A DNA stretch of 43,391 nt, taken from Nitriliruptoraceae bacterium. Its GTDB lineage: Bacteria; Actinomycetota; Nitriliruptoria; Nitriliruptorales; Nitriliruptoraceae. A program made the translations under genes and the position numbers. Location of the stretch: assembly GCA_040903225.1 (NCBI GenBank), contig JBBDVU010000031.1, positions 1 to 43,391 on the forward strand, given 5' to 3'. Positions within the stretch are counted from its first letter, which is position 1. Every line of letters starts with the position of its first letter. Positions 583-30,686 of this stretch are shown here, in pieces. The notes under the pieces are model-generated. The model searched no databases. It was given only the letters and a program-made list of their open reading frames with translations, and was not told the DNA's origin.

Positions 583-585
583 GCC

Positions 586-17433: not shown

Positions 17434-18570
17434 ATGCGCGACATTTTGGACACCGTTCGAGCTTGGCGGCAGCATGACGACGCGGTCGGGCTGGCAACCG
17501 TTGTCGATGTGCGGAGAAGTGCGCCCCGTCAGCCGGGTGCGGCAATGGCGGTCAGCGCAGCTGGTGAGGTTATCGGCAGCGTGTCGGGTGGGTGCGTCGA
17601 AGGCGCAGTCTTCGACGTTGCGCAACAGGTCATGGCGTCACACCAACCTCAGCTGGTGACCTACGGCATCAGTGACGATGAAGCCATGGCGGTCGGGTTG
17701 ACGTGCGGCGGTGAGATCGAATTGTTCATCGAGCGGCTTGATAGTCGCAGTCGAGCGCAGATCGATGCAGTCGCCGATGCGATTGCGGCGGAAGCGCCGT
17801 TAGCACTTGCAACCGTCATCGCAGGACCGGCCGATATCGCCGCCAAGCTTGCGGTCACTGAAACAGATGTTGTTGGCACGCTCGGCGACGAGGGCTTGGA
17901 TGCCGCCGTCGGCGACGATGCACGCGGCATGCTTGAACAGGGAGCTACTGCCCAGCGACGATATGGCCGCCATGGTGAGCGGCGTCGCGACGAGGTGACC
18001 GTGTTCATCGAGTCGTTCGCGCCACGGCCCCGCATGTACGTGTTCGGTGCCATCGATTTCGCCGCCGCGGTTGCGCGCATCGGCAGCTACCTCGGCTATC
18101 ACGTCACTGTCTGTGATGCACGCGCCGTGTTCGCTACGCGTAAACGTTTTCCGGAAGCCGATGACGTCGTCGTCGAGTGGCCTCATCGGTTCCTGGCTTC
18201 CGCGCCAGTCGACCGGCGAACCACTATTTGTGTGCTCACGCACGACCCCAAGTTCGACGTGCCGGTACTCGAGATCGCGCTGCGTTCTGACGCCAGCTAC
18301 GTCGGCGCGATGGGTTCACGGCGCACCCACGAAGATCGCATGCAGCGCCTGCGCGAGCAAGGGCTGACAGATCGTGAACTGGCCCGGCTGCACTCACCTA
18401 TCGGACTCGATCTTGGCGCCCGTACACCAGAAGAGACGGCGGTTTCGATCGCAGCCGAGATCATCCAGAGCCGCTGGGGCGGGCCGGGTCTTCCCCTGCG
18501 TGCTACGTCAGGCGCCATCCATCGGCATGCCGATCGCGTTCGGTCAGCCGGCGGCGTTCTATCCGCCTGA
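17434..18570 (+). CDS. XdhC/CoxI-family cofactor-insertion accessory protein
   Basis: N-terminal XdhC_CoxI motif (ATVVDVRRSAPRQPGAAMAV...GSVSGGCVEG) and a C-terminal Rossmann-like XdhC_C domain (MYVFGAIDFA...). No xdhAB or cox structural genes are nearby. Confidence 0.8.
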   Translation: MRDILDTVRAWRQHDDAVGLATVVDVRRSAPRQPGAAMAVSAAGEVIGSVSGGCVEGAVFDVAQQVMASHQPQLVTYGISDDEAMAVGLTCGGEIELFIERLDSRSRAQIDAVADAIAAEAPLALATVIAGPADIAAKLAVTETDVVGTLGDEGLDAAVGDDARGMLEQGATAQRRYGRHGERRRDEVTVFIESFAPRPRMYVFGAIDFAAAVARIGSYLGYHVTVCDARAVFATRKRFPEADDVVVEWPHRFLASAPVDRRTTICVLTHDPKFDVPVLEIALRSDASYVGAMGSRRTHEDRMQRLREQGLTDRELARLHSPIGLDLGARTPEETAVSIAAEIIQSRWGGPGLPLRATSGAIHRHADRVRSAGGVLSA

Positions 18571-18610
18571 GCTGCAGCGAGAATCAACGTTAACTGCTAG
18601 ACTAACAGTC

Positions 18611-19090
18611 ATGCGACTTGAACTTGGCAAGCGAGCCGACTACGCGATTCGGGCGGCGGTTGATCTCGCGCGTCATCATGCCGATGGGCGTCGCAAAGCC
18701 CGGGCAATTGCCGACGAAATGAGCATCCCGACGAGCTATGTGCCGCAGATTCTGGCGGAACTTGTTAGGGCTGGCATTGCGCGATCCGTGGCCGGCCCCG
18801 ATGGCGGCTATTCGCTGTCGCAACCACCGGTTGACGTGTCGCTGCTCGACGTCCTCCACGCGGTCGATGGCGACGTCGTATCGACGGACTGTGTCCTGCG
18901 AGGTGGGCCTTGTCGCTGGGAAGGTGTGTGCGCGGTGCATGTGCCGTGGTCCCGCGCGCAGCATGCGTTGCTGGACGTGCTCGCCTCGACCAGCCTTGCC
19001 GACATCGTCAATATTGATCGCCAATTGGACGACGGTTCGTTCGAGCTTCCGCCCGACATCGCGATGCCGTTGAACCCTCCACCGGTGTAA
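18611..19090 (+). CDS. Rrf2-family transcriptional regulator with a three-Cys putative Fe-S site
   Basis: N-terminal winged HTH typical of Rrf2 (MRLELGKRADYAIRAAVDLA...). Cys cluster C-x6-C-x5-C (CVLRGGPCRWEGVC). The start is the internal ATG of track ORF 18374..19090. Confidence 0.8.
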   Translation: MRLELGKRADYAIRAAVDLARHHADGRRKARAIADEMSIPTSYVPQILAELVRAGIARSVAGPDGGYSLSQPPVDVSLLDVLHAVDGDVVSTDCVLRGGPCRWEGVCAVHVPWSRAQHALLDVLASTSLADIVNIDRQLDDGSFELPPDIAMPLNPPPV

Positions 19091-19136: not shown

Positions 19137-20282
19137 TCAGACACGTTCGGCTGCCAGCACACACGCAGGATCGTCGGCGAACACGTCGCCAGTCAACGCG
19201 AACGCGCGCGACCGAGAGCCGCCGCAGACATCGGCGAAGCCACAGGATCCGCAGGCACCGTGGAGTCGCTTCGGATCGCGCAGCATTCGCATCAGCGGTG
19301 CATTCCGGTAGATGTCGAGCAGCGGCTGGCTGCGGACAGACCCTGCAGCGACGGGCAGGAATCCACTTGGATAGACGATGCCGAGGTGGTCGATGAAGAC
19401 GAAGCCGCGTCCGGCATTGATGTCGAGTGGCGGCCGTGCGGCTGGTCGCGCCGCAACCTCGGAGGTATCGGTCAGCGCTCGTAGTTCGGCGTACAGATGG
19501 TGCAGCCGCGATATTGGAGGTCGCGCAATCGCCGACGAGCGCCTGCGGGTCCGTTCGACGGCTATGCGTCGGTAGTGCGGCGCTTCGGTGGTCTTGATGG
19601 CGATGCGGCCAGAGACGTCATGCAGCCAGTGCAGAATCGCTTCGGTCTCGTCGGGGTCGGGCGCATCAATGTTGGCGCCGCGTCCGGTCGGTACCAAGAA
19701 GAACACACTCCACAGCCACGCCTGTGCGTGTTCGACAAGCTGCAGGATTGCTGGCAGTTCGCGTGCGTTGCTTCGCGTGACGGTCGTGTTGATCTGCAGC
19801 CGCAGTCCCGCCTGCCTGACGTCGCGCGCAGCGGTGATTGTGGCGTCGAACACACCGGCGATACCCCGGAACATGTCGTGGGTGGCAGCGACGGCGCCGT
19901 CGAGTGACAGGGAAACCGCACGGGCGCCTGCGGCCTTCGCCTGTGCGATCGATTCGGGCGTGAGACGCGCTGTCACCGACGGTGACTGCGCCATGCTCAA
20001 ACCCCGCTGTGCGCCGTGCGCAAGTAATTCGAAAAGGTCATCGCGTTCGAACGGGTCGCCGCCGGTGAGGACGACCAGCGGCGGGGGTGCGCCGAGGTCA
20101 GCGAGTTCGTCGAGCATCGCCATCCCGTCGGCAGTCGAAAGTTCCCGCGGGTGGCGTTGGTCAACGGCGTCGGCCCGACAATGCTGGCACACGAGCTGGC
20201 ACGCCTTGGTTACCTCCCAGATCACCAGAAATGGTCGTTCGTTGACGTCGTAGCGAACATGCCGGACCGGGATGTCACGCAT
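19137..20282 (-). CDS. Radical SAM enzyme with C-terminal SPASM-like Cys cluster (AhbD/NirJ-like)
   Basis: CxxxCxxC motif (CQLVCQHC) about 30 aa from the N-terminus. C-terminal Cys-rich region (CGSCGFADVCGG...DPAC). Start MRDIPV at 20282 overlaps the upstream stop (ATGCGTGA). Confidence 0.8.
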   Translation of the reverse strand: MRDIPVRHVRYDVNERPFLVIWEVTKACQLVCQHCRADAVDQRHPRELSTADGMAMLDELADLGAPPPLVVLTGGDPFERDDLFELLAHGAQRGLSMAQSPSVTARLTPESIAQAKAAGARAVSLSLDGAVAATHDMFRGIAGVFDATITAARDVRQAGLRLQINTTVTRSNARELPAILQLVEHAQAWLWSVFFLVPTGRGANIDAPDPDETEAILHWLHDVSGRIAIKTTEAPHYRRIAVERTRRRSSAIARPPISRLHHLYAELRALTDTSEVAARPAARPPLDINAGRGFVFIDHLGIVYPSGFLPVAAGSVRSQPLLDIYRNAPLMRMLRDPKRLHGACGSCGFADVCGGSRSRAFALTGDVFADDPACVLAAERV

Positions 20283-21804
20283 GCGGGGTCCGATCGCCGA
20301 GGTGGTCGATGACCTGAAGCACGGCGCGTTCGGCGCTGCGGAGGCAATTCGCCAGCCCAGGGCCGTCGAACGCTGCCCCGGCGAGAACGACCCCTGGCCG
20401 GTGTACGCCGAGGCTGTTGCGAGCTGCCTGGATTCGCTGGCTGTGGCCAATCTCGTTGACGGGAAGGGTGTGGGTCCAGCGGTGCACCGCAACTTGTTCT
20501 GGTGTGGCGCGCAGACCGGTGATGGCGGACAACTCGCCATGGAGCCGGTCGGTCACCTCCGCATCGGAAAGATCGTTGGCTCGGGTGTCACCGAACCGAC
20601 CAGTCGACATCCGAACCAGGAACTGCGGCGGCAGATCGAGGTGCGGCCACTTGGCGCTGAGAAATGTGGCCGACTTCAGCATGCCGCCAAAGTTCGACGG
20701 AAGCATGATCCCGGAGGCGTCGAAGGCCGACAGAGATTCGACTGCTGCCTGCGGGTACGCAACGACCACGCACGTGACCGACGACGTCGGACAGCGACCG
20801 AGTGTGGTTGGGATGTCGGTGACGTCGGCAAGCATTCGTGCTGCCGATGCCGCGCCTGTTGCGATGACGACGGCGGCGAACGTCTCGGTTGCCGAATGCG
20901 GAGTCGACGTCGGGGCACCCGTCGGGCCAACGATCTGGTAGCTGCCACCGGCCGTCTTGACGATTGCCTGTACGGGCTGGCCCAAACGGACGTCAGTGCC
21001 ACCCGCCAGTTGCTCGATCACCCGTTGCAGACCGGACACTGCCGTGGCGAAACCCGGCACGTCGGCTGCGCTGCCCGGATGCACCGGCGATGGTCGCCGC
21101 CGCGATCGCCGCAACGTTGCGGCGAGGACGGACCGGTTCGCTGTGAGCTGATCGACCAACTGGGGTGCGCAGCTGCGTGCCTCCAAACGGAAAATGTCGG
21201 CGCCGTGGAGATTGCCCAGCAAGGGATCGACAATGCGCTGTGCCAACTGCCGACCGAACCGTTCGGTAACAAGCTGGCCGACCGACGTTTGATCGGTGAT
21301 GTGGCTGCGTGTGCGTACGAGTTCGGTCGCCGCCCTGAGCAGGCCCGTGGGCGACAGGATCCGGGATGATGCGACCGGCAGCAGCCGGGTCGGTCCGGCC
21401 GGCGTGACGCCATGGGGAAGCCGCCGCAGCGTGACCGCCGGTTGTCCGGCGATTTCGCCAGGAGGTATCCAACCGCTGCTGCCGGTCCCGGTGGGCACGC
21501 CGATCCAGGTGCGCAACCGCCGAGCCCGAACGATGTCGTTGGAACACGCGGTGAAAAGTTGCGGCATGCCGGCAGCGGCAAATATGGCTTCGGCCCCGAG
21601 TTCGACGGCAACGCCAGCCGTGACGTTGACACTTCGCACCTGGCCACCGATGCGGCCAGATGCCTCGAACACCACCGGGGTGTAGCCGCGATCGGCAAGC
21701 AGGGCTGCAGTTGCAATACCGGTGACGCCGGCGCCAATGACCGCGATGCGATGGTCAGGCGCCAGTCCTGGCGTGGATGAACGTTGGTCTACTTGTCCTG
21801 GCAC
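20275..21804 (-). CDS. HemY-type FAD-dependent (copro/proto)porphyrinogen oxidase-like protein
   Basis: N-terminal dinucleotide fold IAVIGAGVTGIATA...FEASGRIGG. Mid-protein VGQLVTERFGRQLAQRIVDPLLGNLHGAD and a C-terminal LAGAAFDGPGLANC, all typical of HemY/CgoX. Confidence 0.7.
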   Translation of the reverse strand: MPGQVDQRSSTPGLAPDHRIAVIGAGVTGIATAALLADRGYTPVVFEASGRIGGQVRSVNVTAGVAVELGAEAIFAAAGMPQLFTACSNDIVRARRLRTWIGVPTGTGSSGWIPPGEIAGQPAVTLRRLPHGVTPAGPTRLLPVASSRILSPTGLLRAATELVRTRSHITDQTSVGQLVTERFGRQLAQRIVDPLLGNLHGADIFRLEARSCAPQLVDQLTANRSVLAATLRRSRRRPSPVHPGSAADVPGFATAVSGLQRVIEQLAGGTDVRLGQPVQAIVKTAGGSYQIVGPTGAPTSTPHSATETFAAVVIATGAASAARMLADVTDIPTTLGRCPTSSVTCVVVAYPQAAVESLSAFDASGIMLPSNFGGMLKSATFLSAKWPHLDLPPQFLVRMSTGRFGDTRANDLSDAEVTDRLHGELSAITGLRATPEQVAVHRWTHTLPVNEIGHSQRIQAARNSLGVHRPGVVLAGAAFDGPGLANCLRSAERAVLQVIDHLGDRTPHA

Positions 21805-21813
21805 GACAGCGGT

Positions 21814-22209
21814 CTATGACGCTGGGACGAATACGAGTTCCATGCCGGCATCTCGATGTCCTGGCACCGAGCACCAGCCGATCACCGGTTCGCTGATGGG
21901 GCCGATGGTTATCGTCGCGGCCCGGCCGGGACGGATCATGCCGCTGTCGACGCTGTCGGTCACCAGGTCGTGCACGATGCCGCCCTCGTTGACCAGTTGC
22001 AGCGTCGTCGGCTGAGTCGCCGAGATCGCGACCTCGTCAGGTTCGAACCGGATGTCATCGAGAATGATGACGACGGCGTCATCGGGTGCCTTGCTAGCAT
22101 CGGGTTCGAGATCGGGTGCGCAGGCGATGATCGCGATACTGAAGGTGGATGCCACGGCCACCTGGGCCGCCGAGCGAAAGCGGAACGATGCCGGGGTTGC
22201 CATGTTCAT
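21814..22209 (-). CDS. Lipoprotein cupredoxin (type 1 blue copper protein)
   Basis: Signal peptide with lipobox (SIAIIAC). Type 1 Cu ligand pattern: His (IVHDL) ... C-x2-GH-x4-M (CSVPGHRDAGM). ATG 22209 is preceded by GAGG at 7 nt; TTG 22233 is an alternative start. Confidence 0.75.
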   Translation of the reverse strand: MNMATPASFRFRSAAQVAVASTFSIAIIACAPDLEPDASKAPDDAVVIILDDIRFEPDEVAISATQPTTLQLVNEGGIVHDLVTDSVDSGMIRPGRAATITIGPISEPVIGWCSVPGHRDAGMELVFVPAS

Positions 22210-22287
22210 GTTCCTGCCTCGTAGGCGCCTCAAGGTTCGTTGCAGCCGGTCCGGCTTGCCAAGCGTGAATCGAATGTGTAGTGTACC

Positions 22288-22349: not shown

Positions 22350-23483
22350 ATGCCAACTCATCAGCGACACGGTCGGCGCGTGACGTTCGTCCGCCGTCTC
22401 GCGGTAGCGACGTCGATCGGGACGCTGGTGCTGATCGCTATGGGTGGTGGGGTCAGGGCAACCGATTCCGGGCTTGCCTGCCCCGACTGGCCGGCCTGCT
22501 ACGGCATGTGGATTCCGCCAGCGGACTTCAATATGTGGATGGAGCACAGTCATCGGCTGTGGGCGGGTGTGATCGGGATTGCGGTAGCGTTGCTGATGGC
22601 GTTGACTTTTGTTGATCGCAAGGCGGCACCCGCGCCATGGCGACTCAGTGCGCTCGCGGGCCTGCTGGTCATCGTACAAGCAGGACTCGGTGCAGTGGTC
22701 GTGCTCCTGCATCTGCGTGCCGGCCTGGTGACGTCGCACCTGGGTATGTCGCTTGTCATCGTCGGTGCGCTCATCGCGGTTGCCGTTCGGGCGGGCACCA
22801 CTACCCCGGATGCAGGCGCCCAATTTGTGGGCACAGCATGGAATGCGCGTACCGTGCGGTTCGGATCGATTGCGGCGGCAGCGGTATTCGTGCAAGCCCT
22901 GCTCGGTGGTCAAGCCACCGGCCGTGGCGCTGCCTATGTCTTCAACGCTGTGCCGATCTGGTTGGCGACCGATGCCTGGTCGGGTCACATCCGAGAGATC
23001 CTGCACGTGACCCACCGGGCGGGTGGCTATCTGGTCGCTGCCGCCGTCGTCGCATTCGCGGTGCATGCCGCGCGACGCAGTCGCCGTCTGGCGGAGGTTG
23101 CCGACGCCTCGGCCAACCGCGCGATCAGCCCGGCGAGTTCGGACAGCATGAGCCTAAAGCGTGCTGCGCGCATCGCCCGGAACACCAGATTCTGGGCAAT
23201 CATCGCCGCCGGTCTCGTGGTGGTCCAGGTGGGATTAGGGCTTGCCAACGTGTTGACACAGGCTATGGTTCCGGTGGCCGTCGGACACTTGTCAGTCGCA
23301 AGCTGGCTGTGGGCAGTGCTGGTGCTGATCGTCGTCCGGGAGCGACACGCGCGGGATCTCGAATATGCATGGGGCGGGATTGAGCTCGGTCCGAACATTG
23401 CAGTTCACGGCGGATCTGGTCGTGCCCCGGTTTTGGCATCGTCGTCGGCATCCGAGCCATCGACTTCGGAGGTGACCGTATGA
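22350..23483 (+). CDS. ctaA: Haem A synthase (COX15/CtaA)
   Basis: GGGVRATDSGLACPDWPACYG motif plus conserved His in TM helices (EHSHR). Polytopic. Confidence 0.85.
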   Translation: MPTHQRHGRRVTFVRRLAVATSIGTLVLIAMGGGVRATDSGLACPDWPACYGMWIPPADFNMWMEHSHRLWAGVIGIAVALLMALTFVDRKAAPAPWRLSALAGLLVIVQAGLGAVVVLLHLRAGLVTSHLGMSLVIVGALIAVAVRAGTTTPDAGAQFVGTAWNARTVRFGSIAAAAVFVQALLGGQATGRGAAYVFNAVPIWLATDAWSGHIREILHVTHRAGGYLVAAAVVAFAVHAARRSRRLAEVADASANRAISPASSDSMSLKRAARIARNTRFWAIIAAGLVVVQVGLGLANVLTQAMVPVAVGHLSVASWLWAVLVLIVVRERHARDLEYAWGGIELGPNIAVHGGSGRAPVLASSSASEPSTSEVTV

Positions 23484-23632
23484 GTGATGTGAACGAACGT
23501 CATCCGTGGCAGCAGCGCGCGCTCGACAACATCTGGTTGCTGCTGGCAATCAGTGTCGTCGTGCCGGGTTTGCTGTACCTCGGGTGGGGACTGTGGGAAC
23601 TAGCTGAGCTTCCAGTGTGGGGCGGAAGGTAG
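23480..23632 (+). CDS. Unannotated 50-codon single-TM ORF; candidate small oxidase subunit (ba3 subunit IIa analogue)
   Basis: Below the track's size cut-off. ATGA overlap with the ctaA stop. Translation: MSDVNERHPWQQRALDNIWLLLAISVVVPGLLYLGWGLWELAELPVWGGR. Its stop lies within the GGAG Shine-Dalgarno sequence of the subunit II gene. Confidence 0.55.
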   Translation: MSDVNERHPWQQRALDNIWLLLAISVVVPGLLYLGWGLWELAELPVWGGR

Positions 23633-23641
23633 GAGACCGAC

Positions 23642-24217
23642 GTGGACACCGATCACACCACGCACGACGAATCCGCGCACAGCAAGGCGCAGTCGACGTT
23701 GCTGCCTCCGCCAGACCGATGGTGGCAACGTCTCGGGCCCGATGAGAGACGCTGGCTCACGATCGCCTTTGTCTGGTGCTTGATCTTGTTCAGTGGCATG
23801 TACATCTGGCTCGGTATCGGCGATCAACAGACGCCGATCGAGTCGTATCGTGTGGATCCGGTTGTTTTTGCGGCGGAAGTCCAGGATTTCATCGAAGAGC
23901 ATCAGGTTGATGAAATCAGCGGTGCGGCGATCGTCGCACCGCCACCCGGTAGTGATGTCTATCTTCAGGCCAACCAGTTCGCGTTCCGGCCGGTGTTGCA
24001 ACTGCAGCGCGGCGAAACCTATCGATTGCTCGTTTCGTCAACCGACGTGCAGCACGGTTTGTCGCTCCAGCCGGTCAACCTCAATTTCCAAGTCCTGCCC
24101 GGGTATCTGTACGTGATTCGCATCACGCCCACAGAAACCGGGGAATTTCCGATCATCTGCAACGAGTTCTGCGGCCTTGGTCATCACGTGATGACCGGGT
24201 TGATCGTCGTCGACTAG
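23642..24217 (+). CDS. Haem-copper oxidase subunit II, ba3 (B-family) type, with intact CuA site
   Basis: One TM helix plus a cupredoxin domain with CuA ligands: H (DVQHG), CNEFCGLGHHVM. The length (191 aa) and the string EFPIICNEFCGLGH closely resemble Thermus ba3 subunit II (YRIICNQYCGLGH). Confidence 0.85.
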   Translation: MDTDHTTHDESAHSKAQSTLLPPPDRWWQRLGPDERRWLTIAFVWCLILFSGMYIWLGIGDQQTPIESYRVDPVVFAAEVQDFIEEHQVDEISGAAIVAPPPGSDVYLQANQFAFRPVLQLQRGETYRLLVSSTDVQHGLSLQPVNLNFQVLPGYLYVIRITPTETGEFPIICNEFCGLGHHVMTGLIVVD

Positions 24218-24259: not shown

Positions 24260-26011
24260 GTGACCGCCATCGCGGAGCCAACGGCATTCCGGACATGTAA
24301 TGTCACCGGATTTCGGATCCACAAGGACGGCCAGCGCCATGCGCTCGTCAACGCTGTCGCGGCCGTGGTGCTGCTGGCGATCGGCGGCACATGGGCCATA
24401 TTGATCGCACTGCAGCGCCAGGGCCTACCAATCAGTGAGGACTGGTGGTACCGGCTGCTTGCCAGCCACGGCGCGACCATGCTGCTGTTCTGGATCTTGT
24501 TCTTCGAAGTCGCAGCCTTGTACTGGGGCTCGACGATGCTGCTCAATGCGCGAATGCTCGCGTCGAAGCTCGCCTGGGCCAACTTTGCGATGATGGCCCT
24601 TGGTGTTGCGCTCGCGCAATGGGCGATGTTGACCGGCCGGGCCACCGTCATGTTCACGGCCTATCCGCCATTGACGGCGCACCCGCTCTACTACGCCGGC
24701 ATCCTCATGTTCGCGGTTGGTGTGCTGATCGCCTGCTGCATCTTTTTTGCCAACATCATCGTTGCCAAGCGCGAGAAGACCTATGAAGGGTCGCTGCCGC
24801 TGGTGGTGTACGGGCTGGTCGCTGCTGCGGTCATCGCGGTGTATGCGCTCGGGACCGGAGCGGTGGCCTATGGGATGCTGTTCCTCGACTCCGTCGGGTT
24901 GATGGACGGTGTCGACCCGGCGTTGTACCGACTGTTTTTCTGGGGTATCGGCCATGGCGCGCAGCAAGTGAACCTGGCCGCGATGGTGGCCGTCTGGTAC
25001 GCGCTGATCGCGTTGACGCTGGGTGGACGGCCGGTCAACGAAGGACTGAGCCGATTCGCGTTCCTGCTCTACATCGCGTTCATTCACCTTGGCGCCGTGC
25101 ACCACCTGCTCGTTGACCCGGGCCTTGGCACCAGCCACCGCATCATGAACACGAGCTATTTCCTGTACCTCGCGGTGCTGGCGAGTCTCATCCATGCGTT
25201 CTCGGTTCCTGCGGCAATGGAAGTTGCCCAACGTGAACGCGGAATCGGCCACGGAATGTTCGGCTGGCTCAAGAAGGCGCCGTGGCGCGAACCAGGATTT
25301 TCGGCGCTGGTGCTCTCGGTGGTGTACTTCGGGTTCATTGCGGGCGTGACCGGGGTGCTCATGGGCACGATGCAGCTCAACATGATCATCCACAACACGC
25401 TGTTCGTGGTCGGTCACTTCCACGCCACCGTAGTTTCCGGGACGACGCTCGCGTTCATGGGCATCTCGTACTACATCGTGCCGCTGTTGAGCCAGCGCAA
25501 GTTGTCATCCCCGCGGATGGCGCAACTGCAGACGTATGTATTCGCTGGAGGCTTGGCGATACTGACCCTGGGGATGTTGGTCGCTGGTCAGCGCGGTGTG
25601 CCGCGTCGGGTGGCGGACCTGGAATACACCGGATCGCCGCTCAGTGTTGAGCTGTTCGGTGCGACGACACCGACGCCAATGCTCATGGGGATCATCTCGG
25701 TTGGTGCCGTGCTCGCGGTCGTCGGTGGCGTCATGTTTGTCTGGAACATGGTGGCGACACTGTTCTGGGGCGAGCGGACCGAACGTGGCGACGAAGGGCT
25801 CGCTATCGCCTACTCCAACATTGCTGGTCGTGACAGTCGCGGCATTGCGGTGCAGACGCACCCCGACCTGGTGGCGCAAGGCATCAAGGGTCGATGGGCG
25901 CAATTCGAAGCGCCGGGTACGTACCTGATCGTGCTGATTTTCTTGGCCTGGTTCGTGGTGATGTATGTCGCCGCCCATCTCAATCTGTCGCGCGCCTGGC
26001 CGGTCGGATAG
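24260..26011 (+). CDS. Haem-copper oxidase superfamily subunit I, ba3-like (B-family related), lacking the canonical cross-linked Tyr
   Basis: Alignable by eye along its length with Thermus ba3 subunit I. Ligand His present: H70, H232, H281/H282, H386/H388. Motif GHGAQQV replaces GHPIVYF. Confidence 0.85.
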   Translation: MTAIAEPTAFRTCNVTGFRIHKDGQRHALVNAVAAVVLLAIGGTWAILIALQRQGLPISEDWWYRLLASHGATMLLFWILFFEVAALYWGSTMLLNARMLASKLAWANFAMMALGVALAQWAMLTGRATVMFTAYPPLTAHPLYYAGILMFAVGVLIACCIFFANIIVAKREKTYEGSLPLVVYGLVAAAVIAVYALGTGAVAYGMLFLDSVGLMDGVDPALYRLFFWGIGHGAQQVNLAAMVAVWYALIALTLGGRPVNEGLSRFAFLLYIAFIHLGAVHHLLVDPGLGTSHRIMNTSYFLYLAVLASLIHAFSVPAAMEVAQRERGIGHGMFGWLKKAPWREPGFSALVLSVVYFGFIAGVTGVLMGTMQLNMIIHNTLFVVGHFHATVVSGTTLAFMGISYYIVPLLSQRKLSSPRMAQLQTYVFAGGLAILTLGMLVAGQRGVPRRVADLEYTGSPLSVELFGATTPTPMLMGIISVGAVLAVVGGVMFVWNMVATLFWGERTERGDEGLAIAYSNIAGRDSRGIAVQTHPDLVAQGIKGRWAQFEAPGTYLIVLIFLAWFVVMYVAAHLNLSRAWPVG

Positions 26012-26014
26012 GTC

Positions 26015-26950
26015 ATGGCAATGTCTTCGGCAGCGGCAGAGACGGCGGTTGTCACCAGCAGTGCAGCCTCGGCTGCAACGTGGCGCGACGCGGTCGCCGA
26101 CTATACGAGCCTGACCAAGCCGCGGATCATCGAGCTGCTGCTGGTGACGACGGTGCCAGCGATGTTCGTCGCCGCTCGCGGTTGGCCCGGGACCGGGCTG
26201 CTGGTCGCAACACTCGCGGGTGGCGCGCTCGTGTCGGGTTCGGCGCATGCGTTCAACATGGTTATCGACCGCGACATCGACGGCATGATGGCGCGGACCC
26301 GCAACCGCCCGATGCCATCGGGCAGGATCTCGGTACAGTCGGCGCTGCAGTTTGCGACGGTGCTGCTTGTGCTGGGCACGACAATACTTGCGGCATTCGC
26401 GGGCATGCTGGCCACGGCGCTCACCGTTGTCGCCTGGGCCTGGTATGTCGTCATCTACACGCTCCTGCTGAAGCGAAGAACACCGCAGAACATCGTGATC
26501 GGGGGTGTCGCCGGCGCGCTCCCGCCAATGATCGGCTGGGCCGCCGTGACCGGATCGATCGCCATGCCGGCCGTCATCATGTTCGCTGTTGTGGTGTTGT
26601 GGACCCCCACACACTTTTGGGCGCTTGCGATCGGCACCGGGCAGGACTACGCAAATGCCAACGTGCCGATGCTGCCGGTACTCCGGGGAGCGCATGCCGC
26701 CGGGAGGCAGGCGGCGGTCTACGCCGCGCTGACGGTGGCGGCGTCGTTCACCTTGTTAGCCGCTGGCTTGTCTAGCCCGATTTTCGCTGTGTTGCTGGTG
26801 TTGTTCGGCACGGTCTTTGTTGGTTATGCCCTGTTGTTTGCCAGGTCGATTTCGTGCAAGCGCGCCTGGGTGCTGTTCCACCTGTCCAACGGCTACCTGG
26901 CGCTGGTATTTGCCGCGATCGCGGCGGTCGGTCTGCTCCACGAATGGTGA
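26015..26950 (+). CDS. ctaB: Protohaem IX farnesyltransferase (haem O synthase)
   Basis: UbiA-family with CtaB strings (GSAHAFNMVIDRDIDGMMARTRNRP; TPQNIVIGG; LWTPTHFWALA). Confidence 0.9.
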   Translation: MAMSSAAAETAVVTSSAASAATWRDAVADYTSLTKPRIIELLLVTTVPAMFVAARGWPGTGLLVATLAGGALVSGSAHAFNMVIDRDIDGMMARTRNRPMPSGRISVQSALQFATVLLVLGTTILAAFAGMLATALTVVAWAWYVVIYTLLLKRRTPQNIVIGGVAGALPPMIGWAAVTGSIAMPAVIMFAVVVLWTPTHFWALAIGTGQDYANANVPMLPVLRGAHAAGRQAAVYAALTVAASFTLLAAGLSSPIFAVLLVLFGTVFVGYALLFARSISCKRAWVLFHLSNGYLALVFAAIAAVGLLHEW

Positions 26951-26954
26951 CATC

Positions 26955-28163
26955 GTGAACGGGCGTCGCGTCAGCTTGGCGCTGACGATCGGTATCGCGG
27001 TTGTGCTCGTCAACGGATTGGCAGCCACGCCGGCGCACGCGCACACGCGGACCGCGGAAACGACCAATCTTGCCAGTGTCGTCACCAACGCGCCTGAACT
27101 CGAGGGTGTCACCTTCACGGTCTATACCGGGGGCTTTCTTATTGGGCTCACGAACGCGACGGATCGCGACATCATCGTGGCCGGATACGACGGTGAGCCG
27201 TACCTGCGCATCGGGCCCGACGGTGCGTTCGAGAACCGGCACTCGGCCGCGACCTATCTCAACCGGGAGCGTTACGGTGATGTGGCGGTCCCACCGCGTG
27301 TCGACCCTGCGAGCGACCCAGACTGGATCCGGGTCAGTGCACAACCATCGTGGGTGTGGCACGACCACCGCACCCATTGGATGTCACCGCAGCCACCGCG
27401 TTTCGTTGAAGCGTCGGTGGTGACCCGCCTGCTGATGCGTGCACGGCTCGTGGGGCCGATCGGATCGGGCGGAGAGCAACAGGGTGCGTTTCAGGAGTGG
27501 CAGATCCCGTTCGAGCACGATCAACATGCCTATGTCATTAGCGGCGAGTTGCGCTGGATCGACGCGCCACCAGTATGGCCGTGGTACCTGCTGGCAGCAG
27601 CGTTTGTTGCGATGATGTTGGGTGTGAACCGTGCGGTGTCCCGCCATGAGATGATCGGGCCCCAGCGATGGTTGAACCCGCTCGCCAACCTCGTCGTGGC
27701 GGTGGCTGTCGTAAACGCCATTCACCTAGTTGATGATCTGGCAGCATGGCCTGGCGACCTGCTCGACGAACTATTTGGCCTGCTGCACACGCTGCTGTTT
27801 CTCACCGCTGGCCTGGTCGGCGCGTTCTGGGCCCGTTATGCCCGTGACGGGCGGGTTTTGGCACTCGGCATCGCCTCTGGTGCCCTGGTGTATCACCAGG
27901 GTCTGGTGCACCTGCCGATGCTGTACGCATCACAGTTTCCAACACTGTGGCCACCCGAGCTCGTTCGATTCAGTGTTGCACTGGGACTCATGCAAGCCGT
28001 GCCTGTGGCATGGTTTGTCATTGGCCACCTGCGCAGCCACCGTTCCGATGCCAACAACGGCCTGCAGGCAGATGTGAGCCAGCCGACGGTGCCGGTGGCG
28101 TCGAAAGCGGACCAGCCGCACATCAACTTGGATAGTAACATTAAGTATGGTACAAAACGTTAG
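26955..28163 (+). CDS. Exported His-rich domain fused to a polytopic membrane domain; function unknown (candidate copper-handling or assembly factor)
   Basis: GTG 26955 lies 4 nt after the ctaB stop. Signal peptide ends ...ATPAHA, followed by HTRT. Motif WVWHDHRTHWM (nt 27357-27383). Five or six C-terminal TM helices. Confidence 0.6.
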   Translation: MNGRRVSLALTIGIAVVLVNGLAATPAHAHTRTAETTNLASVVTNAPELEGVTFTVYTGGFLIGLTNATDRDIIVAGYDGEPYLRIGPDGAFENRHSAATYLNRERYGDVAVPPRVDPASDPDWIRVSAQPSWVWHDHRTHWMSPQPPRFVEASVVTRLLMRARLVGPIGSGGEQQGAFQEWQIPFEHDQHAYVISGELRWIDAPPVWPWYLLAAAFVAMMLGVNRAVSRHEMIGPQRWLNPLANLVVAVAVVNAIHLVDDLAAWPGDLLDELFGLLHTLLFLTAGLVGAFWARYARDGRVLALGIASGALVYHQGLVHLPMLYASQFPTLWPPELVRFSVALGLMQAVPVAWFVIGHLRSHRSDANNGLQADVSQPTVPVASKADQPHINLDSNIKYGTKR

Positions 28164-28166
28164 TAT
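28134..28166. promoter_or_regulatory. AT-rich quasi-palindromic operator candidate (site 2), upstream of the second cupredoxin gene
   Basis: AGTAACATTAAGTATGGTACAAAACGTTAGTAT. Inverted half-sites are TAACATT (28136-28142) and AACGTTA (28156-28162), with an inner GTAnnnTAC. Overlaps the last codons of the upstream gene and lies about 70-95 nt before ATG 28231. Confidence 0.55.
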
Positions 28167-28230
28167 CAGCGCTACAACGCCATCACATCAGGTGGTGATC
28201 AGCGCCACGGATTCGCAAAGGAGAATATTC

Positions 28231-28596
28231 ATGCGCACGTCCAGAGTCCTCGTGATCGCGATCGCCGCTGTGGTGATCGCCGCGTGTGGAGGGGGTGACG
28301 ATGCGCCCGCCGCAGCCCCTGCGAGCGGCGCCATCAGTGTCGAAGCCGGCGACTTGTACTACGAACCGACGAGCCTGACTGCTGCGGCAGGTGAGATTCA
28401 GATCACCATCGAGAACACCGGCGCGGTCGAACACGATGTCGTCATCGAAGAAGCGGGTGACGTAGAGGTCGTCCATGCAGAGGCCGGAGAAACCGTAACT
28501 GGCACCGTCACGCTCGAAGCAGGCACCTACACGTTCTACTGCGCGATTCCAGGCCACCGTGCTGCCGGCATGGAGGGGACGCTCACCGTCCAATGA
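28231..28596 (+). CDS. Lipoprotein cupredoxin (type 1 blue copper protein), paralogue of 21814..22209
   Basis: AAGGAG Shine-Dalgarno sequence upstream of the ATG. Signal plus lipobox (VVIAAC). Cu ligands: H (VEHDV) ... CAIPGHRAAGM. Confidence 0.8.
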   Translation: MRTSRVLVIAIAAVVIAACGGGDDAPAAAPASGAISVEAGDLYYEPTSLTAAAGEIQITIENTGAVEHDVVIEEAGDVEVVHAEAGETVTGTVTLEAGTYTFYCAIPGHRAAGMEGTLTVQ

Positions 28597-28663
28597 TGGC
28601 GGCTAACACTTGAACCGTCACACCGGGTCGGTGACCAGCACCGGCCCGGATGAGGGGCCCAAC

Positions 28664-29407
28664 ATGACTACCACGGTGAACACGCGTTCGGCTCCCAGCC
28701 CCGCGACGGTCCATCGCGCGCTCGCAAGCCCCGTGCGTGGACGCATCATCGACACGCTCGTCGACTCGTCACCGTGCGACATTCAGGAGTTGGCGGCAGC
28801 GATGGGCTTGCACCCCAACACCATTCGTAGTCACCTGGTAATTCTGGAAGAAGCCGCGTTGGTCGACTACACGCACGCTGCACCGGCCGGTAGAGGCCGC
28901 CCACGCCGCCTCTACCGCGCGATGGCTGCCCGTTGGACCGAGGATGGCGCCTTCGGCTACGAACTGCTCGCGTCGATCCTCGCTGGTGTCGTGGCATCCG
29001 AGTCGAGCGATCCAAGCCGGCCGACCGAACAACGTGCGGCCGAGTGGGGCCGTCGCCTCGTTCAAGAACACCGGATCACGCCTGGCCCGCCCGCTTCTAC
29101 GGCGCGTGCGCTCGATCACGTCACCGTGATGCTGGATCGACTGGGTTTCGAACCAGAGGTCGACCTTGCCGCGCACGGCGGCCCAACACTGCGTCTGTAT
29201 CAGTGCCCATTCCGGACCGTCGCTCGCGACAACCCCAGAGTCGCCTGTGCGGTCCACCTCGGGTTGACGCGAGGTGCGCTCGAAGCTCTTGGCGGGGGGT
29301 TGCAGATCCGTCGCTTTGAACCGCACCTTGGCGCCGGCCCATGCGTGACCATGTTCGGTACCCGAAGGTCCGCGCCAAGTAACGGTGTGGCCGGCGAGGC
29401 GCGCTGA
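28664..29407 (+). CDS. ArsR-type winged-HTH regulator with extended C-terminal Cys/His-containing domain
   Basis: HRALASPVRGRIIDTL...IQELAAAMGLHPNTIRSHLVILEEAALV is an ArsR/SmtB-type HTH. The C-terminal domain carries CPF...ACAVHLG...GPC. An earlier start (28610) is possible. Confidence 0.75.
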   Translation: MTTTVNTRSAPSPATVHRALASPVRGRIIDTLVDSSPCDIQELAAAMGLHPNTIRSHLVILEEAALVDYTHAAPAGRGRPRRLYRAMAARWTEDGAFGYELLASILAGVVASESSDPSRPTEQRAAEWGRRLVQEHRITPGPPASTARALDHVTVMLDRLGFEPEVDLAAHGGPTLRLYQCPFRTVARDNPRVACAVHLGLTRGALEALGGGLQIRRFEPHLGAGPCVTMFGTRRSAPSNGVAGEAR

Positions 29408-29408
29408 C

Positions 29409-30686
29409 ATGCCGGACCGCTCTTCGCGGGTGCCGCTTGGGGCTTCACCGTTCGGGCACGCCGCCCCGTCGATCATTCTGGCAGTCCTGTTTATGGCGGC
29501 AACGATCGTCTGGGCGGTCGTTGACGTCCTGCCAGGCGGCAGGTGGTTCGCGGTTCACCTGTTCACTCTGGGGGTATTGACCAACGCCGTACTCACGTTC
29601 AGTGATCATTTTTCCCGCACACTCACCCGTTGGCCCGGCGAACGGGCATGGTGGTGGCCGCTACCGATTAACGGTGCCATTGTGACGATGCTCGTCGGGA
29701 TGCAACTCGCCGGGCGGTGGGTGTTCGCCATCGGCGCGACCGGGGTGCTCACTGTCGTGTTGATGTCGTACTGGCGCATCAGGACGATGCGAAAGCGCGC
29801 ACTCGGCCCCCGGTTCGGTTGGGTCGTGCGGATGTATGAACGCGCTCATGGCGCGTTTGTCCACGGTGCACTGCTTGGCATCCTGTTGGGCATCGGTGTG
29901 GTTGCTGGTCCGTGGTATGGGACCGCCCGGCTGGCGCATCTGCACATCAACATCTTCGGCTGGGGCGGTTTGACGCTGCTGGCAACGCTCGTCTTCTTCG
30001 GGCCGTCGATGGCACGTACGCGCATCGAACCCGGCGCTGACGCCCGGGCTGCCAAGGCGCTTCGCATTGGCGCTACGGCATTGACGGTTGCCGTCGTCGC
30101 ACTGTTATTGTCAGCATTCGCAGGAACAGCTGGTGTCGTATTCCGGCTGCTGGCCGCACTGATGTTCGCCGGCTTCGGCTGGGCCGTACTTGTCGTCTGC
30201 ATACCGCTGGTACGAGCGGTATGCAGCGCACGGCGGAGCGCACAGCAGCCACTGATCGTGGCAGTGGCATTCTGGTTCGGTGGCGCCGCGATCGCCGACG
30301 TCGTCGTGATAGCCACGGCGCAGTGGGCGTGGCTCGATGCGATCGGTGCCATGATGCTCGCCGGTGTACTTGCTCAGGCGATTCTTGCCACCCTCATCTA
30401 TCTCACCCCGATGCTGCGCGGGCGCACCGCGCAGGCACGCGACATCATGCGTGACCGACTCGACCGGGCTGCCCTGGTGCGGGCGGTCGCGTTCAATGCT
30501 GGGGTCGTCGCACTCGTGCTGGCAGCGGTTCCCAACGGCGTTGCCGCCGCCACCGTGGCAGGATGGCTGCTGGTGGCCACAACGATCACCACCACCGGGG
30601 CGATCGCGCTCAGCCCGCTCAAGGCGGTCGACCGCCCGGTAGATGCGCCTGCAGCCGACCACCAGCCGTCGCGTCAGGACGCGTAA
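29409..30686 (+). CDS. Polytopic (about 10-12 TM) membrane protein with conserved-looking intramembrane His residues; function unknown
   Basis: ATG lies 1 nt after the ArsR stop (TGAcATG). Hydrophobic throughout. Motifs FAVHLFTLG and LAHLHINIFGWGG. Confidence 0.6.
   Translation: MPDRSSRVPLGASPFGHAAPSIILAVLFMAATIVWAVVDVLPGGRWFAVHLFTLGVLTNAVLTFSDHFSRTLTRWPGERAWWWPLPINGAIVTMLVGMQLAGRWVFAIGATGVLTVVLMSYWRIRTMRKRALGPRFGWVVRMYERAHGAFVHGALLGILLGIGVVAGPWYGTARLAHLHINIFGWGGLTLLATLVFFGPSMARTRIEPGADARAAKALRIGATALTVAVVALLLSAFAGTAGVVFRLLAALMFAGFGWAVLVVCIPLVRAVCSARRSAQQPLIVAVAFWFGGAAIADVVVIATAQWAWLDAIGAMMLAGVLAQAILATLIYLTPMLRGRTAQARDIMRDRLDRAALVRAVAFNAGVVALVLAAVPNGVAAATVAGWLLVATTITTTGAIALSPLKAVDRPVDAPAADHQPSRQDA

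What the first reader, a model, noticed from the sequence alone, without database searches (positions are those of the whole stretch)
24260..26011. ba3-like haem-copper oxidase subunit I with the catalytic cross-linked tyrosine replaced by glutamine (GHGAQQ where ba3 has GHPIVY)
The 583-aa product aligns by eye over its whole length with Thermus thermophilus ba3 subunit I. Shared blocks include TVxxTxYPPLxxH, GLxxGVDP, FGWxxxxPWxxPxF, HNTxxVxGHFH and VPRR.

All six metal-ligand histidines are kept: H70, H232, H281-H282, H386 and H388 in ORF numbering. The exception is the residue four positions after the first CuB histidine. In A- and B-family oxidases this is the His-cross-linked redox-active Tyr (ba3 H233/Y237). 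Here it is Gln (H232-G-A-Q235-Q236, nt 24953-24967). The position of the ba3 K-path-analogue Tyr244 is Val.

In cNOR NorB the same H+4 position holds the FeB-ligating Glu (HLWVE). The site therefore looks NOR-like rather than oxidase-like, even though subunit II keeps a full CuA centre (as in the Bacillus CuA-NOR).

B-family-derived clades lacking the Tyr have been proposed, as I recall under the names eNOR, bNOR, sNOR, gNOR and nNOR. At least one of them is reported to be an NO reductase. This gene may belong to one of those clades or to an undescribed one. I cannot place it without a phylogeny.
Basis: partly seen in the sequence, partly recalled or inferred. Interest (0 to 1): 0.85.

Follow-up and report, generated by a model that had tools for sequence, protein, structure and literature searches.

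The report
eNOR-type nitric oxide reductase operon
This gene encodes the catalytic subunit of an eNOR-type nitric oxide reductase, a known offshoot of ba3-type oxidases in which glutamine replaces the catalytic tyrosine, so it is a correctly spotted but ordinary new member of a described family.

Summary
ORF 24260-26011 (+) encodes a 583-aa haem-copper oxidoreductase subunit I. Its best solved relative is Thermus ba3 subunit I (E about 1e-47). All six metal-ligand histidines are kept. The residue aligned with the cross-linked Tyr237 of ba3 is Gln236 (CAA, 24965-24967).

This is a family trait, not an error. GH-x-x-Q-Q-x-N is invariant in all 237 full-length homologues examined.

Published work names Gln at this site as the diagnostic of the eNOR family. 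That family derives from B-type oxidases. Its Rhodothermus marinus member reduces NO, does not reduce O2, and carries haem A-type cofactors.

The window meets the other eNOR traits:
- an adjacent subunit II with a complete CuA site;
- a K-channel-like residue set that includes S309;
- ctaA and ctaB flanking the structural genes in one tight operon;
- a conserved 50-aa third gene.

An NJ tree gives the Gln clade 84% bootstrap support. An HMM built only from eNORs outside the window's own clade scores 661 bits, against 333 for a B-family HMM.

Relatives lie beside nirS in a Thermus plasmid and a proteobacterial contig. No nir or nos gene lies in this 43-kb window.

Verdict: a new member of a known kind, from a Nitriliruptoraceae-like actinobacterium. 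Activity is inferred, not shown.

The parts
24260..26011 (+). eNOR subunit I (583 aa), a haem-copper oxidoreductase catalytic subunit. Ligands are H70 and H388 (low-spin haem), H386 (high-spin haem) and H232/H281/H282 (non-haem metal).
24953..24973 (+). Active-site motif H232-G-A-Q235-Q236-V-N238 (CAT GGC GCG CAG CAA GTG AAC). Q236 takes the place of the cross-linked Tyr237 of ba3.
   Evidence: The motif is invariant in 237/237 homologues.
25085..25087 (+). H276 on helix VII, five residues before H281. This position is always H, Q or N in the Gln clade, and is hydrophobic or Thr in the B family and the Tyr-keeping sister group.
24998..25204 (+). K-channel-analogue residues Y247 (ba3 Y248), S309 (S309), H312 (T312) and S315 (T315).
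   Evidence: S309 is named as conserved in eNOR in PMC11214002.
23642..24217 (+). eNOR subunit II (191 aa): an N-terminal membrane anchor plus a cupredoxin domain with a full CuA site (H138; C173-x3-C-x3-H-x2-M at 24158-24193).
23480..23632 (+). Conserved 50-aa single-helix protein, probably a third small subunit comparable to ba3 subunit IIa. Its start overlaps the ctaA stop (ATGA).
   Evidence: It is conserved upstream of subunit II in loci from Nitriliruptoria, Trueperaceae, Bacillota, Limnochordia, Thermomicrobium, Alphaproteobacteria and a haloarchaeon. No Pfam or NCBIfam hit.
22350..23483 (+). ctaA (haem A synthase, COX15-CtaA family).
   Evidence: E = 3e-36. Synteny.
26015..26950 (+). 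ctaB (haem O synthase). It starts 3 nt after the subunit I stop.
   Evidence: NF003349, 343 bits, above its cut-off of 246.
26955..28163 (+). Conserved protein of unknown function, with a signal peptide and a C-terminal multi-helix membrane domain. It always follows ctaB in Nitriliruptoria loci. The start at GTG 26955 is inferred.
   Evidence: No family hit.
28147..28596 (+). Lipoprotein-type blue-copper protein (plastocyanin/azurin family). It is a candidate electron donor to CuA.
   Evidence: The donor role is inferred.
28610..29407 (+). ArsR-type HTH regulator within the same gene string.
29385..30686 (+). 433-aa polytopic membrane protein of unknown function, syntenic in Nitriliruptoria.
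21814..22233 (-). Second cupredoxin-like lipoprotein, divergent from ctaA.
18374..19087 (+). Rrf2-family regulator with a C-x7-C-x5-C motif. The Rrf2 domain starts at about residue 84 of the listed ORF. It is syntenic upstream of the cluster and is a possible Fe-S or NO sensor.
   Evidence: The sensor role is inferred.
19137..20540 (-). TIGR04053-family radical SAM/SPASM protein, a relative of AhbD and NirJ, lying next to a HemY-like oxidase (20275-21804, -).
   Evidence: 478 bits, above its cut-off of 395. The same family sits beside nirS near the Thermus eNOR homologue. Synteny.

Best explanation
The gene encodes subunit I of an eNOR-type nitric oxide reductase. It sits in an operon ordered ctaA, 50-aa subunit, CuA subunit II, subunit I, ctaB, in a Nitriliruptoraceae-like actinobacterium.

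Proposed mechanism, inferred by homology to the characterised Rhodothermus marinus enzyme:
1. Electrons enter at the binuclear CuA centre of subunit II. The donor is periplasmic; here it is plausibly one of the two neighbouring blue-copper lipoproteins.
2. Electrons pass to a low-spin haem held by H70 and H388.
3. They then reach a high-spin haem (H386) paired with a non-haem metal held by H232, H281 and H282.
4. At that site two NO are reduced to N2O in a two-electron reaction, which needs no His-Tyr radical cofactor.

The tyrosine site is filled by Gln236. Gln235, Asn238 and the polar residue 276 (His here) surround it. The haems are expected to be A-type and made by the co-encoded CtaB and CtaA, so maturation needs some O2. 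That fits micro-oxic or aerobic NO reduction, or NO detoxification. Protons probably arrive from the cytoplasm through a retained K-channel-like path (Y247, S309, H312, S315), which would make the reaction electrogenic.

Shown here: the sequence features, the family placement and the operon. Inferred: the activity, the metal identity, the haem type, the electron donor and the proton uptake.
For: - Fold and ligands: COX1 family; best solved relative is ba3; all six His are kept.
- Tyr replaced by Gln at H+4, with QQxN invariant in 237/237 homologues. Gln at this site is the stated diagnostic of eNOR (PMC8756737).
- The R. marinus eNOR reduces NO, cannot reduce O2, and carries haem As in both sites. 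Many eNOR operons contain ctaA, and the Magnetospirillum neighbourhood has ctaA and ctaB (PMC11214002 and its preprint). The window has both genes tightly linked.
- Subunit II has a complete CuA site.
- S309 and other K-channel-analogue residues are conserved.
- Tree: the Gln clade has 84% bootstrap support and contains the window together with Thermomicrobium, Thermus, Defluviimonas and a haloarchaeon. It is separate from the B family.
- The Thermus member has GHFK, the His/Lys low-spin ligation reported for some eNORs.
- Profile test: 661 bits for an eNOR HMM built without the window's own clade, 520 for the Tyr-keeping sister group, 333 for the B family.
- Denitrification context in relatives: nirS lies 3.5 kb from the Thermus homologue. 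NnrS, nirS and a haem d1 gene lie beside a proteobacterial homologue. That homologue's operon (haem O synthase, SCO1, cytochrome b/Fe-S protein) matches the published Ferrigenium straubiae eNOR operon (10.64898/2026.01.22.701106).
- eNOR is reported as common in hypersaline settings. The closest relatives are Nitriliruptoraceae MAGs.
Against: - No nitrite reductase, nitrate reductase or N2O reductase gene was found among the ORFs of the 43-kb window scanned with Pfam.
- I could not retrieve the R. marinus Rmar_0161 sequence, so the link to the characterised enzyme rests on published family criteria, named co-members and operon structure, not a direct alignment.
- The window's clade is only about 42-50% identical to the named eNOR-bearing lineages.
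- The window's clade carries His at position 276, where other eNORs have Gln or Asn. The metal site could therefore differ.
- Two eNOR-specific invariant tyrosines, Y300 and Y303 at the top of helix VIII, could not be placed relative to the metal site. No model coordinates were available.
- The non-haem metal of eNOR (Fe or Cu) is not established by anything tested here.
Confidence: 0.82

Rival explanations
1. It is a functional O2 reductase: a divergent B-type oxidase that reduces O2 without the canonical helix VI tyrosine. It would use another conserved residue, such as Y300 or Y303, or a different mechanism.
For: - Haem A biosynthesis genes flank it, and CtaA needs O2.
- No denitrification genes lie in the window.
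- Y300 and Y303 are eNOR-specific and at least 97% conserved, and their position relative to the metal site is unresolved.
- The closest sister group, GHxxQYxN, keeps the Tyr.
Against: - The characterised eNOR could not reduce O2 with any donor tested. The authors also found no evidence of tyrosine migration in models of these families (PMC11214002).
- The helix VII position used by cbb3 oxidases (six residues before the His pair; numbering from my own knowledge) is an invariant Ile or Leu.
- Homologues sit beside nirS and NnrS.
Confidence: 0.06
2. It is an eNOR-family enzyme used mainly for NO detoxification or signalling in an aerobe, not for respiratory denitrification.
For: - No nir, nar or nos genes in 43 kb.
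- A Cys-containing Rrf2 regulator lies in synteny.
- Haem A needs O2.
- A detoxifying role is discussed for eNOR in 10.64898/2026.01.22.701106.
Against: This is a physiological variant of the main explanation and not a different molecule. The rest of the genome was not visible, so nirK or nirS may lie elsewhere. The retained proton-channel residues suggest energy coupling.
Confidence: 0.3
3. The Nitriliruptoria subclade, with His276 adding a fourth imidazole near the non-haem metal, has diverged to another substrate or chemistry, for example N2O, nitrite or peroxide.
For: His276 occurs in 97 of 117 members of the window's clade set, against Gln or Asn in all other eNORs. The subclade also has its own conserved unknown neighbours at 26955-28163 and 29385-30686.
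Against: Every other active-site and channel residue is identical to other eNORs. H, Q and N are conservative alternatives as hydrogen-bonding side chains. No direct evidence supports a new substrate.
Confidence: 0.05
4. The Gln is a sequencing or assembly artefact, or the gene is a decaying pseudogene of a ba3 oxidase.
For: None found.
Against: - The ORF is intact.
- 112 positions are at least 97% conserved across 237 homologues, including QQxN.
- Two nucleotide changes would be needed to reach a Tyr codon.
- The operon is conserved across phyla.
Confidence: 0.01

Closest known systems
eNOR family of haem-copper nitric oxide reductases (Hemp & Gennis 2008; Rhodothermus marinus enzyme characterised in Murali et al. 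2024, PMC11214002)
   Same: - B-family-derived subunit I with all six His ligands.
- Gln in place of the cross-linked Tyr.
- A CuA subunit II.
- K-channel-like residues including S309.
- ctaA and ctaB in the operon.
- Occurrence in saline habitats.
- Same clade as the Thermus (His/Lys variant), Thermomicrobium, proteobacterial and haloarchaeal Gln-type enzymes.
   Different: - It comes from a Nitriliruptoraceae-like actinobacterium.
- It has His at position 276 where other eNORs have Gln or Asn.
- The operon lacks the SCO1 and cytochrome b/Fe-S genes of proteobacterial eNOR operons. Instead it carries two cupredoxins and two unknown membrane proteins.
- No nir gene lies nearby.
- It was not compared directly with the R. 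marinus sequence.
Thermus thermophilus cytochrome ba3 oxidase (B family; PDB 1EHK and 1XME)
   Same: It is the best solved relative (E about 1e-47 for subunit I, about 3e-16 for subunit II). It has the same ligand set, the same CuA site and a small third subunit. Y248 and S309 of the K-path are kept.
   Different: Y237 becomes Q236, V236 becomes Q235, W239 becomes N238, Y244 becomes V243, T312 becomes H312, and T277-P278 becomes H276-L277. The eNOR profile outscores the B-family profile by 328 bits.
Tyr-retaining sister group with motif GHxxQYxN (Hodarchaeales and Thermoproteota archaea). This is probably the 'K family' of O2 reductases, which is said to cluster with eNOR in preprint 10.1101/592808.
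   Same: About 42-45% identity to the window for three of the four full-length members. It shares Q235, N238, E83, Y247, S309 and H312.
   Different: It keeps Tyr at H+4, has Val at 276 followed by Pro, and lacks Y300 and Y303. The window scores 141 bits lower on its profile than on the eNOR profile. Equating this group with the K family is my inference.
cNOR/qNOR (NorB)
   Same: No active-site Tyr. A carboxamide or carboxylate side chain sits at H+4: Gln here, and the FeB-ligating Glu in NorB (my own knowledge, plus PMC11214002 Fig. 1 legend).
   Different: cNOR and qNOR are relatives of the C family. They have a cytochrome c or quinol entry and no CuA, and they lack conserved cytoplasmic proton channels.
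bNOR (Bacillus azotoformans qCuANOR), sNOR, gNOR and nNOR
   Same: They are derived from B-family oxidases. All but gNOR keep the CuA ligands in subunit II. All lack the Tyr.
   Different: - sNOR has Asn at the Tyr site, and bNOR is stated to share its active-site structure (Table A4).
- gNOR replaces a metal-ligand His with Asp and lacks the CuA ligands.
- nNOR has the cNOR-like residue set with a His/Met low-spin haem.
- The window has Gln, all three metal His ligands, His/His haem ligation and a full CuA site.

Membership tests
eNOR | Haem-copper oxidoreductase subunit I, related to the B family, with the six canonical His ligands | tested here: met
   Pfam COX1 at 4e-65. ba3 is the best PDB relative. 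H70, H232, H281, H282, H386 and H388 align to ba3 H72, H233, H282, H283, H384 and H386.
eNOR | Gln in place of the cross-linked active-site Tyr, the diagnostic used in PMC8756737 | tested here: met
   Q236 aligns with ba3 Y237. It is invariant in 237/237 homologues.
eNOR | No conserved Tyr elsewhere that could re-form a His-Tyr cofactor | tested here: inconclusive
   The helix VII position six residues before the His pair (the cbb3 Tyr site, from my own knowledge) is an invariant Ile or Leu. Y271 is Leu in 40 of 117 relatives. The eNOR-specific Y300 and Y303 could not be placed in 3D, because no coordinates were available and the model was lost. The literature reports no migration.
eNOR | Adjacent subunit II that binds CuA | tested here: met
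   H138 and C173-x3-C-x3-H-x2-M align to the ba3 subunit II CuA ligands.
eNOR | Conserved K-channel-like polar residues, including the Ser equivalent to ba3 S309 | tested here: met
   Y247, S309 and H312 are invariant, and position 315 is S, T or C. The criterion comes from PMC11214002.
eNOR | Groups with eNOR sequences and not with B-family oxidases or other NOR clades | tested here: met
   NJ tree with 84% bootstrap for the Gln clade. HMM scores of 661 (eNOR, own clade excluded), 520 and 333 bits. The references were assigned to eNOR by published criteria and operon structure, not taken from the authors' curated alignment. Rmar_0161 was not available.
eNOR | Haem A-type cofactors, with ctaA/ctaB frequently in the operon (typical, not strictly defining) | tested here: met
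   ctaA overlaps the start of the small ORF, and ctaB starts 3 nt after subunit I. The haem content itself cannot be tested here.
eNOR | NO reductase activity and no O2 reductase activity | not testable with these tools
   This needs purified enzyme or membranes and NO/O2 electrode assays.
B-family O2 reductase (ba3 type) | Redox-active Tyr four residues after the first CuB His, for the His-Tyr cross-link | tested here: not met
   Gln236 occupies this position.
cNOR/qNOR and nNOR | Glu at H+4 as the fourth FeB ligand. In addition, cNOR has a cytochrome c subunit and nNOR has a His/Met low-spin haem. | tested here: not met
   Gln and not Glu at H+4. A CuA subunit II is present. The low-spin haem has His/His ligands.
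sNOR/bNOR | Asn at the Tyr position (Table A4 of PMC8756737; bNOR is stated to share the sNOR active site) | tested here: not met
   Position 236 is Gln.
gNOR | One metal-ligand His replaced by Asp, and a subunit II lacking the CuA ligands | tested here: not met
   All three His ligands and a full CuA motif are present.

The most novel reading that the evidence does not exclude
The Nitriliruptoria and allied subclade of eNOR puts a histidine (H276) where all other eNORs have Gln or Asn. The position is on helix VII and, from helix geometry only, is expected to lie near the Gln that replaced the tyrosine. If H276 ligates or tunes the non-haem metal, this subclade would have a four-imidazole site unlike any characterised haem-copper enzyme. 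It might then differ in metal (Cu or Fe), in substrate preference or in proton coupling. The two conserved unknown membrane proteins and two cupredoxins in its operon could form a distinct electron-entry and assembly module.
Probability: 0.08. Interest if true: 0.55.

Novelty: new member of a known kind. Interest (0 to 1): 0.27.

Why it matters
The gene adds a haloalkaliphile-type actinobacterial lineage (Nitriliruptoraceae) to the organisms that probably reduce NO to N2O with an energy-conserving, haem A-containing eNOR. This matters for N2O budgets in soda-lake and saline sediments.

It also illustrates a lasting annotation problem. Public records call these proteins 'cbb3-type' or 'ba3-type cytochrome c oxidase subunit I'. 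NCBIfam has no model that captures them. Genome surveys therefore miss this NOR.

A simple rule separates them from true B-family oxidases: GHxxQQxN plus a polar residue five positions before the His pair. The family and its chemistry are already described, so this instance opens no new question.

Tried and rejected
- Retrieving the characterised R. marinus eNOR (Rmar_0161) or the Magnetospirillum enzyme for a direct alignment. A profile search with four distant eNORs returned 120 mostly unnamed proteobacterial sequences. Cluster look-ups gave no organism names for the two hits on complete-genome-sized contigs. The paper's supplementary alignment is not held.
- Measuring Tyr-to-H232 distances. 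The AlphaFold model (pLDDT 80.7, pTM 0.86) is not exposed as coordinates. The first fold search was lost, and by the second attempt the model had gone.
- Finding denitrification genes in the window. None was found.
- Testing the 433-aa membrane protein as a distant NnrS, and assigning the 402-aa protein and the 50-aa ORF to families. No hits appeared even at E up to 10.
- One literature search was wasted because the term 'enor' matched 'enormous'.
- A sequencing error or pseudogene was rejected on conservation.
- Y271 as a migrated tyrosine was rejected because it is not conserved.
Full report
**Observation**

It is a COX1-family protein (Pfam E = 4e-65). Its best relative among solved structures is subunit I of Thermus thermophilus cytochrome ba3, with E about 1e-47 over residues 53-525.

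I rebuilt a ba3 fragment and checked it against the known ba3 numbering (H72, Y133, H233, Y237, Y244, Y248, S261, H282/H283, S309, T312, T315, H384/H386, R449/R450). With that fragment the window maps as follows:

| ba3 | window |
|---|---|
| H72 | H70 |
| H233 | H232 |
| V236 | Q235 |
| Y237 | Q236 |
| W239 | N238 |
| Y244 | V243 |
| Y248 | Y247 |
| T277 | H276 |
| H282/H283 | H281/H282 |
| S309 | S309 |
| T312 | H312 |
| T315 | S315 |
| H384/H386 | H386/H388 |

The DNA at 24953-24967 reads CAT GGC GCG CAG CAA. Reaching a Tyr codon at 24965-24967 would need two substitutions.

**Not chance and not error**

All 120 best homologues (52-80% identical) carry GH-G-[ASL]-Q-Q-[VIML]-N. A further 120 sequences came from a profile of four distant members and are about 42-47% identical to the window. 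All of them carry GH-x-x-Q-Q-x-N. Across the 237 full-length sequences, 112 positions are at least 97% conserved. These include Q235, Q236, N238, all six His ligands, Y247, S309, H312 and R449/R450.

**What the literature says**

- Schwartz et al. 2022 (PMC8756737) identify eNOR subunit I by a conserved Gln at the position where oxygen reductases have the cross-linking Tyr. Their Table A4 lists Y for oxygen reductases, E for cNOR and qNOR, N for sNOR and Q for eNOR.
- Murali et al. 2024 (PMC11214002) make several points:
  - The R. marinus eNOR reduces NO, cannot reduce O2, and carries haem As in both haem sites.
  - Many eNOR operons contain ctaA, and the Magnetospirillum neighbourhood has ctaA and ctaB.
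  - Some eNORs ligate the low-spin haem with His/Lys.
  - eNOR keeps K-channel-like residues, including the Ser equivalent to ba3 S309.
  - eNOR is common in hypersaline environments.

**Testing those features here**

*Subunit II.* The gene at 23642-24217 aligns to the ba3 CuA domain (E about 3e-16). It keeps H138 and C173-NEF-C-GLG-H-HV-M, which is the complete CuA ligand set.

*Proton path.* The K-channel analogue is retained apart from Y244, which is Val here.

*Operon.*
- ctaA (22350-23483) overlaps the start of a 50-aa ORF (23480-23632).
- Subunit II follows after 9 nt, and subunit I after 42 nt.
- ctaB (26015-26950; haem O synthase, 343 bits, above its cut-off) follows after 3 nt.
- The string small ORF, subunit II, subunit I, ctaB recurs in Nitriliruptoria, Trueperaceae, Bacillota, Thermomicrobium roseum (a CtaA-CtaB fusion) and Alphaproteobacteria. 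In the haloarchaeal and Thermaerobacter loci the UbiA-type gene lies upstream instead, and the Limnochordia locus lacks it.
- The 50-aa protein has a conserved motif (PW-QR-LD, one helix, LY-WGL-EL-P) across these phyla. It is a real gene, probably a small third subunit comparable to ba3 subunit IIa. That comparison is an inference.

**Placement**

Representatives of the whole similarity neighbourhood fall into distinct groups by motif:

| Group | Motif | Members seen |
|---|---|---|
| Gln type | GHxxQQxN | window, T. roseum, Thermus plasmid, Defluviimonas, Natrarchaeobius |
| Tyr-keeping sister | GHxxQYxN | Hodarchaeales, Thermoproteota |
| Classical B family | GHPxVYFW | ba3, Deinococcus, Geobacillus, Natrialba |
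| Stranger groups | various | distant hits only |

- In an NJ tree on 508 trimmed columns the Gln-type sequences form a clade with 84% bootstrap support. It lies apart from the B family. The Tyr-keeping group is its closest neighbour. The window sits in a subclade with Nitriliruptoria, Bacillota, Limnochordia and T. roseum (90% support).
- The Thermus member has GHFK, the His/Lys ligation reported for some eNORs.
- The Tyr-keeping neighbour fits the remark in preprint 10.1101/592808 that a 'K family' of O2 reductases clusters with eNOR. That equation is my inference.
- An HMM built only from eNOR-type sequences outside the window's own clade scores the window at 661 bits. The Tyr-keeping group scores 520 bits and the B family 333 bits.
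- NCBIfam has no matching model. Every oxidase equivalog falls far below its cut-off.

**Functional context in relatives**

- On Thermus thermophilus megaplasmids the homologue (42% identity) lies 3.5 kb from nirS. A TIGR04053 radical SAM gene and an Rrf2 regulator lie nearby, and both gene families also occur in the window.
- On a 4.9-Mb proteobacterial contig the homologue is followed by haem O synthase, SCO1, a cytochrome b/Fe-S fusion and hemerythrin. NnrS, nirS and a haem d1 biosynthesis gene come next.
- The first part of that operon matches the published eNOR operon of Ferrigenium straubiae (10.64898/2026.01.22.701106).
- In the window itself I found no nir, nar or nos gene. Upstream lie the following:
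  - Rieske and dihaem cytochrome c genes;
  - cytochrome c maturation genes;
  - menaquinone genes;
  - signalling proteins and XdhC;
  - an Rrf2 regulator;
  - the radical SAM gene and HemY.
- Downstream of ctaB lie a conserved unknown protein, a blue-copper lipoprotein, an ArsR regulator and a 433-aa membrane protein. All are syntenic within Nitriliruptoria.

**Mechanism**

By homology, electrons enter at CuA. The neighbouring cupredoxins are plausible donors in an actinobacterium, but that is an inference. Electrons then pass through the low-spin haem to the high-spin haem and the three-His non-haem metal, where two NO are reduced to N2O. The reaction needs only two electrons, so the His-Tyr cofactor is dispensable.

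[quoted passage not shown] The co-encoded CtaA and CtaB suggest A-type haems and therefore a need for some O2 during maturation. Activity, metal identity and haem type are all inferred and not shown.

**Differences worth recording**

- Residue 276 lies five positions before the His pair. It is always H, Q or N in the Gln clade. It is His in 97 of 117 members of the window's clade set, and Gln or Asn elsewhere. In the B family and the Tyr-keeping group it is Thr or hydrophobic and is followed by Pro.
- Y300 and Y303 flank a one-residue insertion at the top of helix VIII. They are eNOR-specific and at least 97% conserved.
- I could not place these residues in space. The AlphaFold model (pLDDT 80.7, pTM 0.86) gives no coordinates, has low confidence at 287-301, and was later lost.

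**Limits**

- I could not obtain the R. marinus sequence. Membership therefore rests on published diagnostic criteria, named co-members and operon structure.
- The tree is NJ and not maximum likelihood.
- Only 43 kb of the genome is visible.

**Verdict**

The gene is a member of the known eNOR family and not an undescribed clade. It is a new member of a known kind, of modest interest. Its main practical value is that it flags a recurrent misannotation.

Noticed in passing
window 25085-25087 (H276); homologues: A second family-specific site. The residue five positions before the H281/H282 pair is always H, Q or N in Gln-type (eNOR) sequences, and the following Pro of B-family enzymes is lost. 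The window's clade has His, and other eNORs have Gln or Asn.
   Followed up: partly
window 25148-25168 (N297-T-S-Y300 ... Y303): An eNOR-specific 'NTSY' segment with a one-residue insertion and two tyrosines that are at least 97% conserved, at the top of helix VIII. They are absent from the B family and from the Tyr-keeping sister group. Their distance to the metal site could not be measured.
   Followed up: partly
proteins P0122, P0124, P0126, P0143: A group of archaeal haem-copper enzymes (Hodarchaeales, Thermoproteota) with motif GHxxQYxN. It is the closest neighbour of eNOR but keeps the tyrosine. It is probably the unpublished 'K family' of O2 reductases.
   Followed up: partly
proteins P0173, P0174, P0217, P0233, P0240; P0190, P0229, P0253, P0254, P0259; P0175, P0198, P0206: Distant hits include haem-copper homologues with unusual ligand sets:
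- FHxxHY with Tyr in place of one CuB His and of the high-spin haem His (one member is from Dehalococcoidia);
- GHxLQ[YF] with the His pair replaced by x-Y;
- sequences with Gln or Asn in place of the first CuB His.
None was examined further.
   Followed up: no
window 23480-23632: A 50-aa single-helix ORF with no family assignment is conserved upstream of subunit II in eNOR operons of at least six phyla. It is probably an unannotated small subunit.
   Followed up: partly
window 26955-28163 and 29385-30686: Two conserved proteins without any Pfam or NCBIfam match travel with the operon in Nitriliruptoria only. One is a secreted domain with a membrane domain; the other is a 433-aa polytopic membrane protein.
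   Followed up: partly
window 19137-20540 (-) and 20275-21804 (-); L036 1587-2714: A TIGR04053 radical SAM/SPASM protein, related to AhbD and NirJ, sits next to a HemY-like oxidase here. The same family sits next to nirS on Thermus megaplasmids. Its role in haem or haem d1 chemistry is unknown.
   Followed up: no
window 18374-19087; L036 9718-10140: An Rrf2 regulator with C-x7-C-x5-C is syntenic upstream of the operon in Nitriliruptoria. Thermus has an Rrf2 gene directly after its eNOR homologue. It may be an NO- or Fe-S-responsive regulator.
   Followed up: partly
window 100-2534: A Rieske protein, a dihaem cytochrome c and a 311-aa membrane protein without family assignment lie at the window start. 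ResA, CcdA, ResB and CcsA follow, and then a menaquinone gene set (MenE, B, A, C, D). No cytochrome b gene was seen next to the Rieske and cytochrome c pair.
   Followed up: no
L045 5636-8293 and 8430-9071: In a Limnochordia MAG the eNOR operon is divergent from a Crp/Fnr-type regulator and a cbb3-like CcoN/CcoO pair.
   Followed up: no
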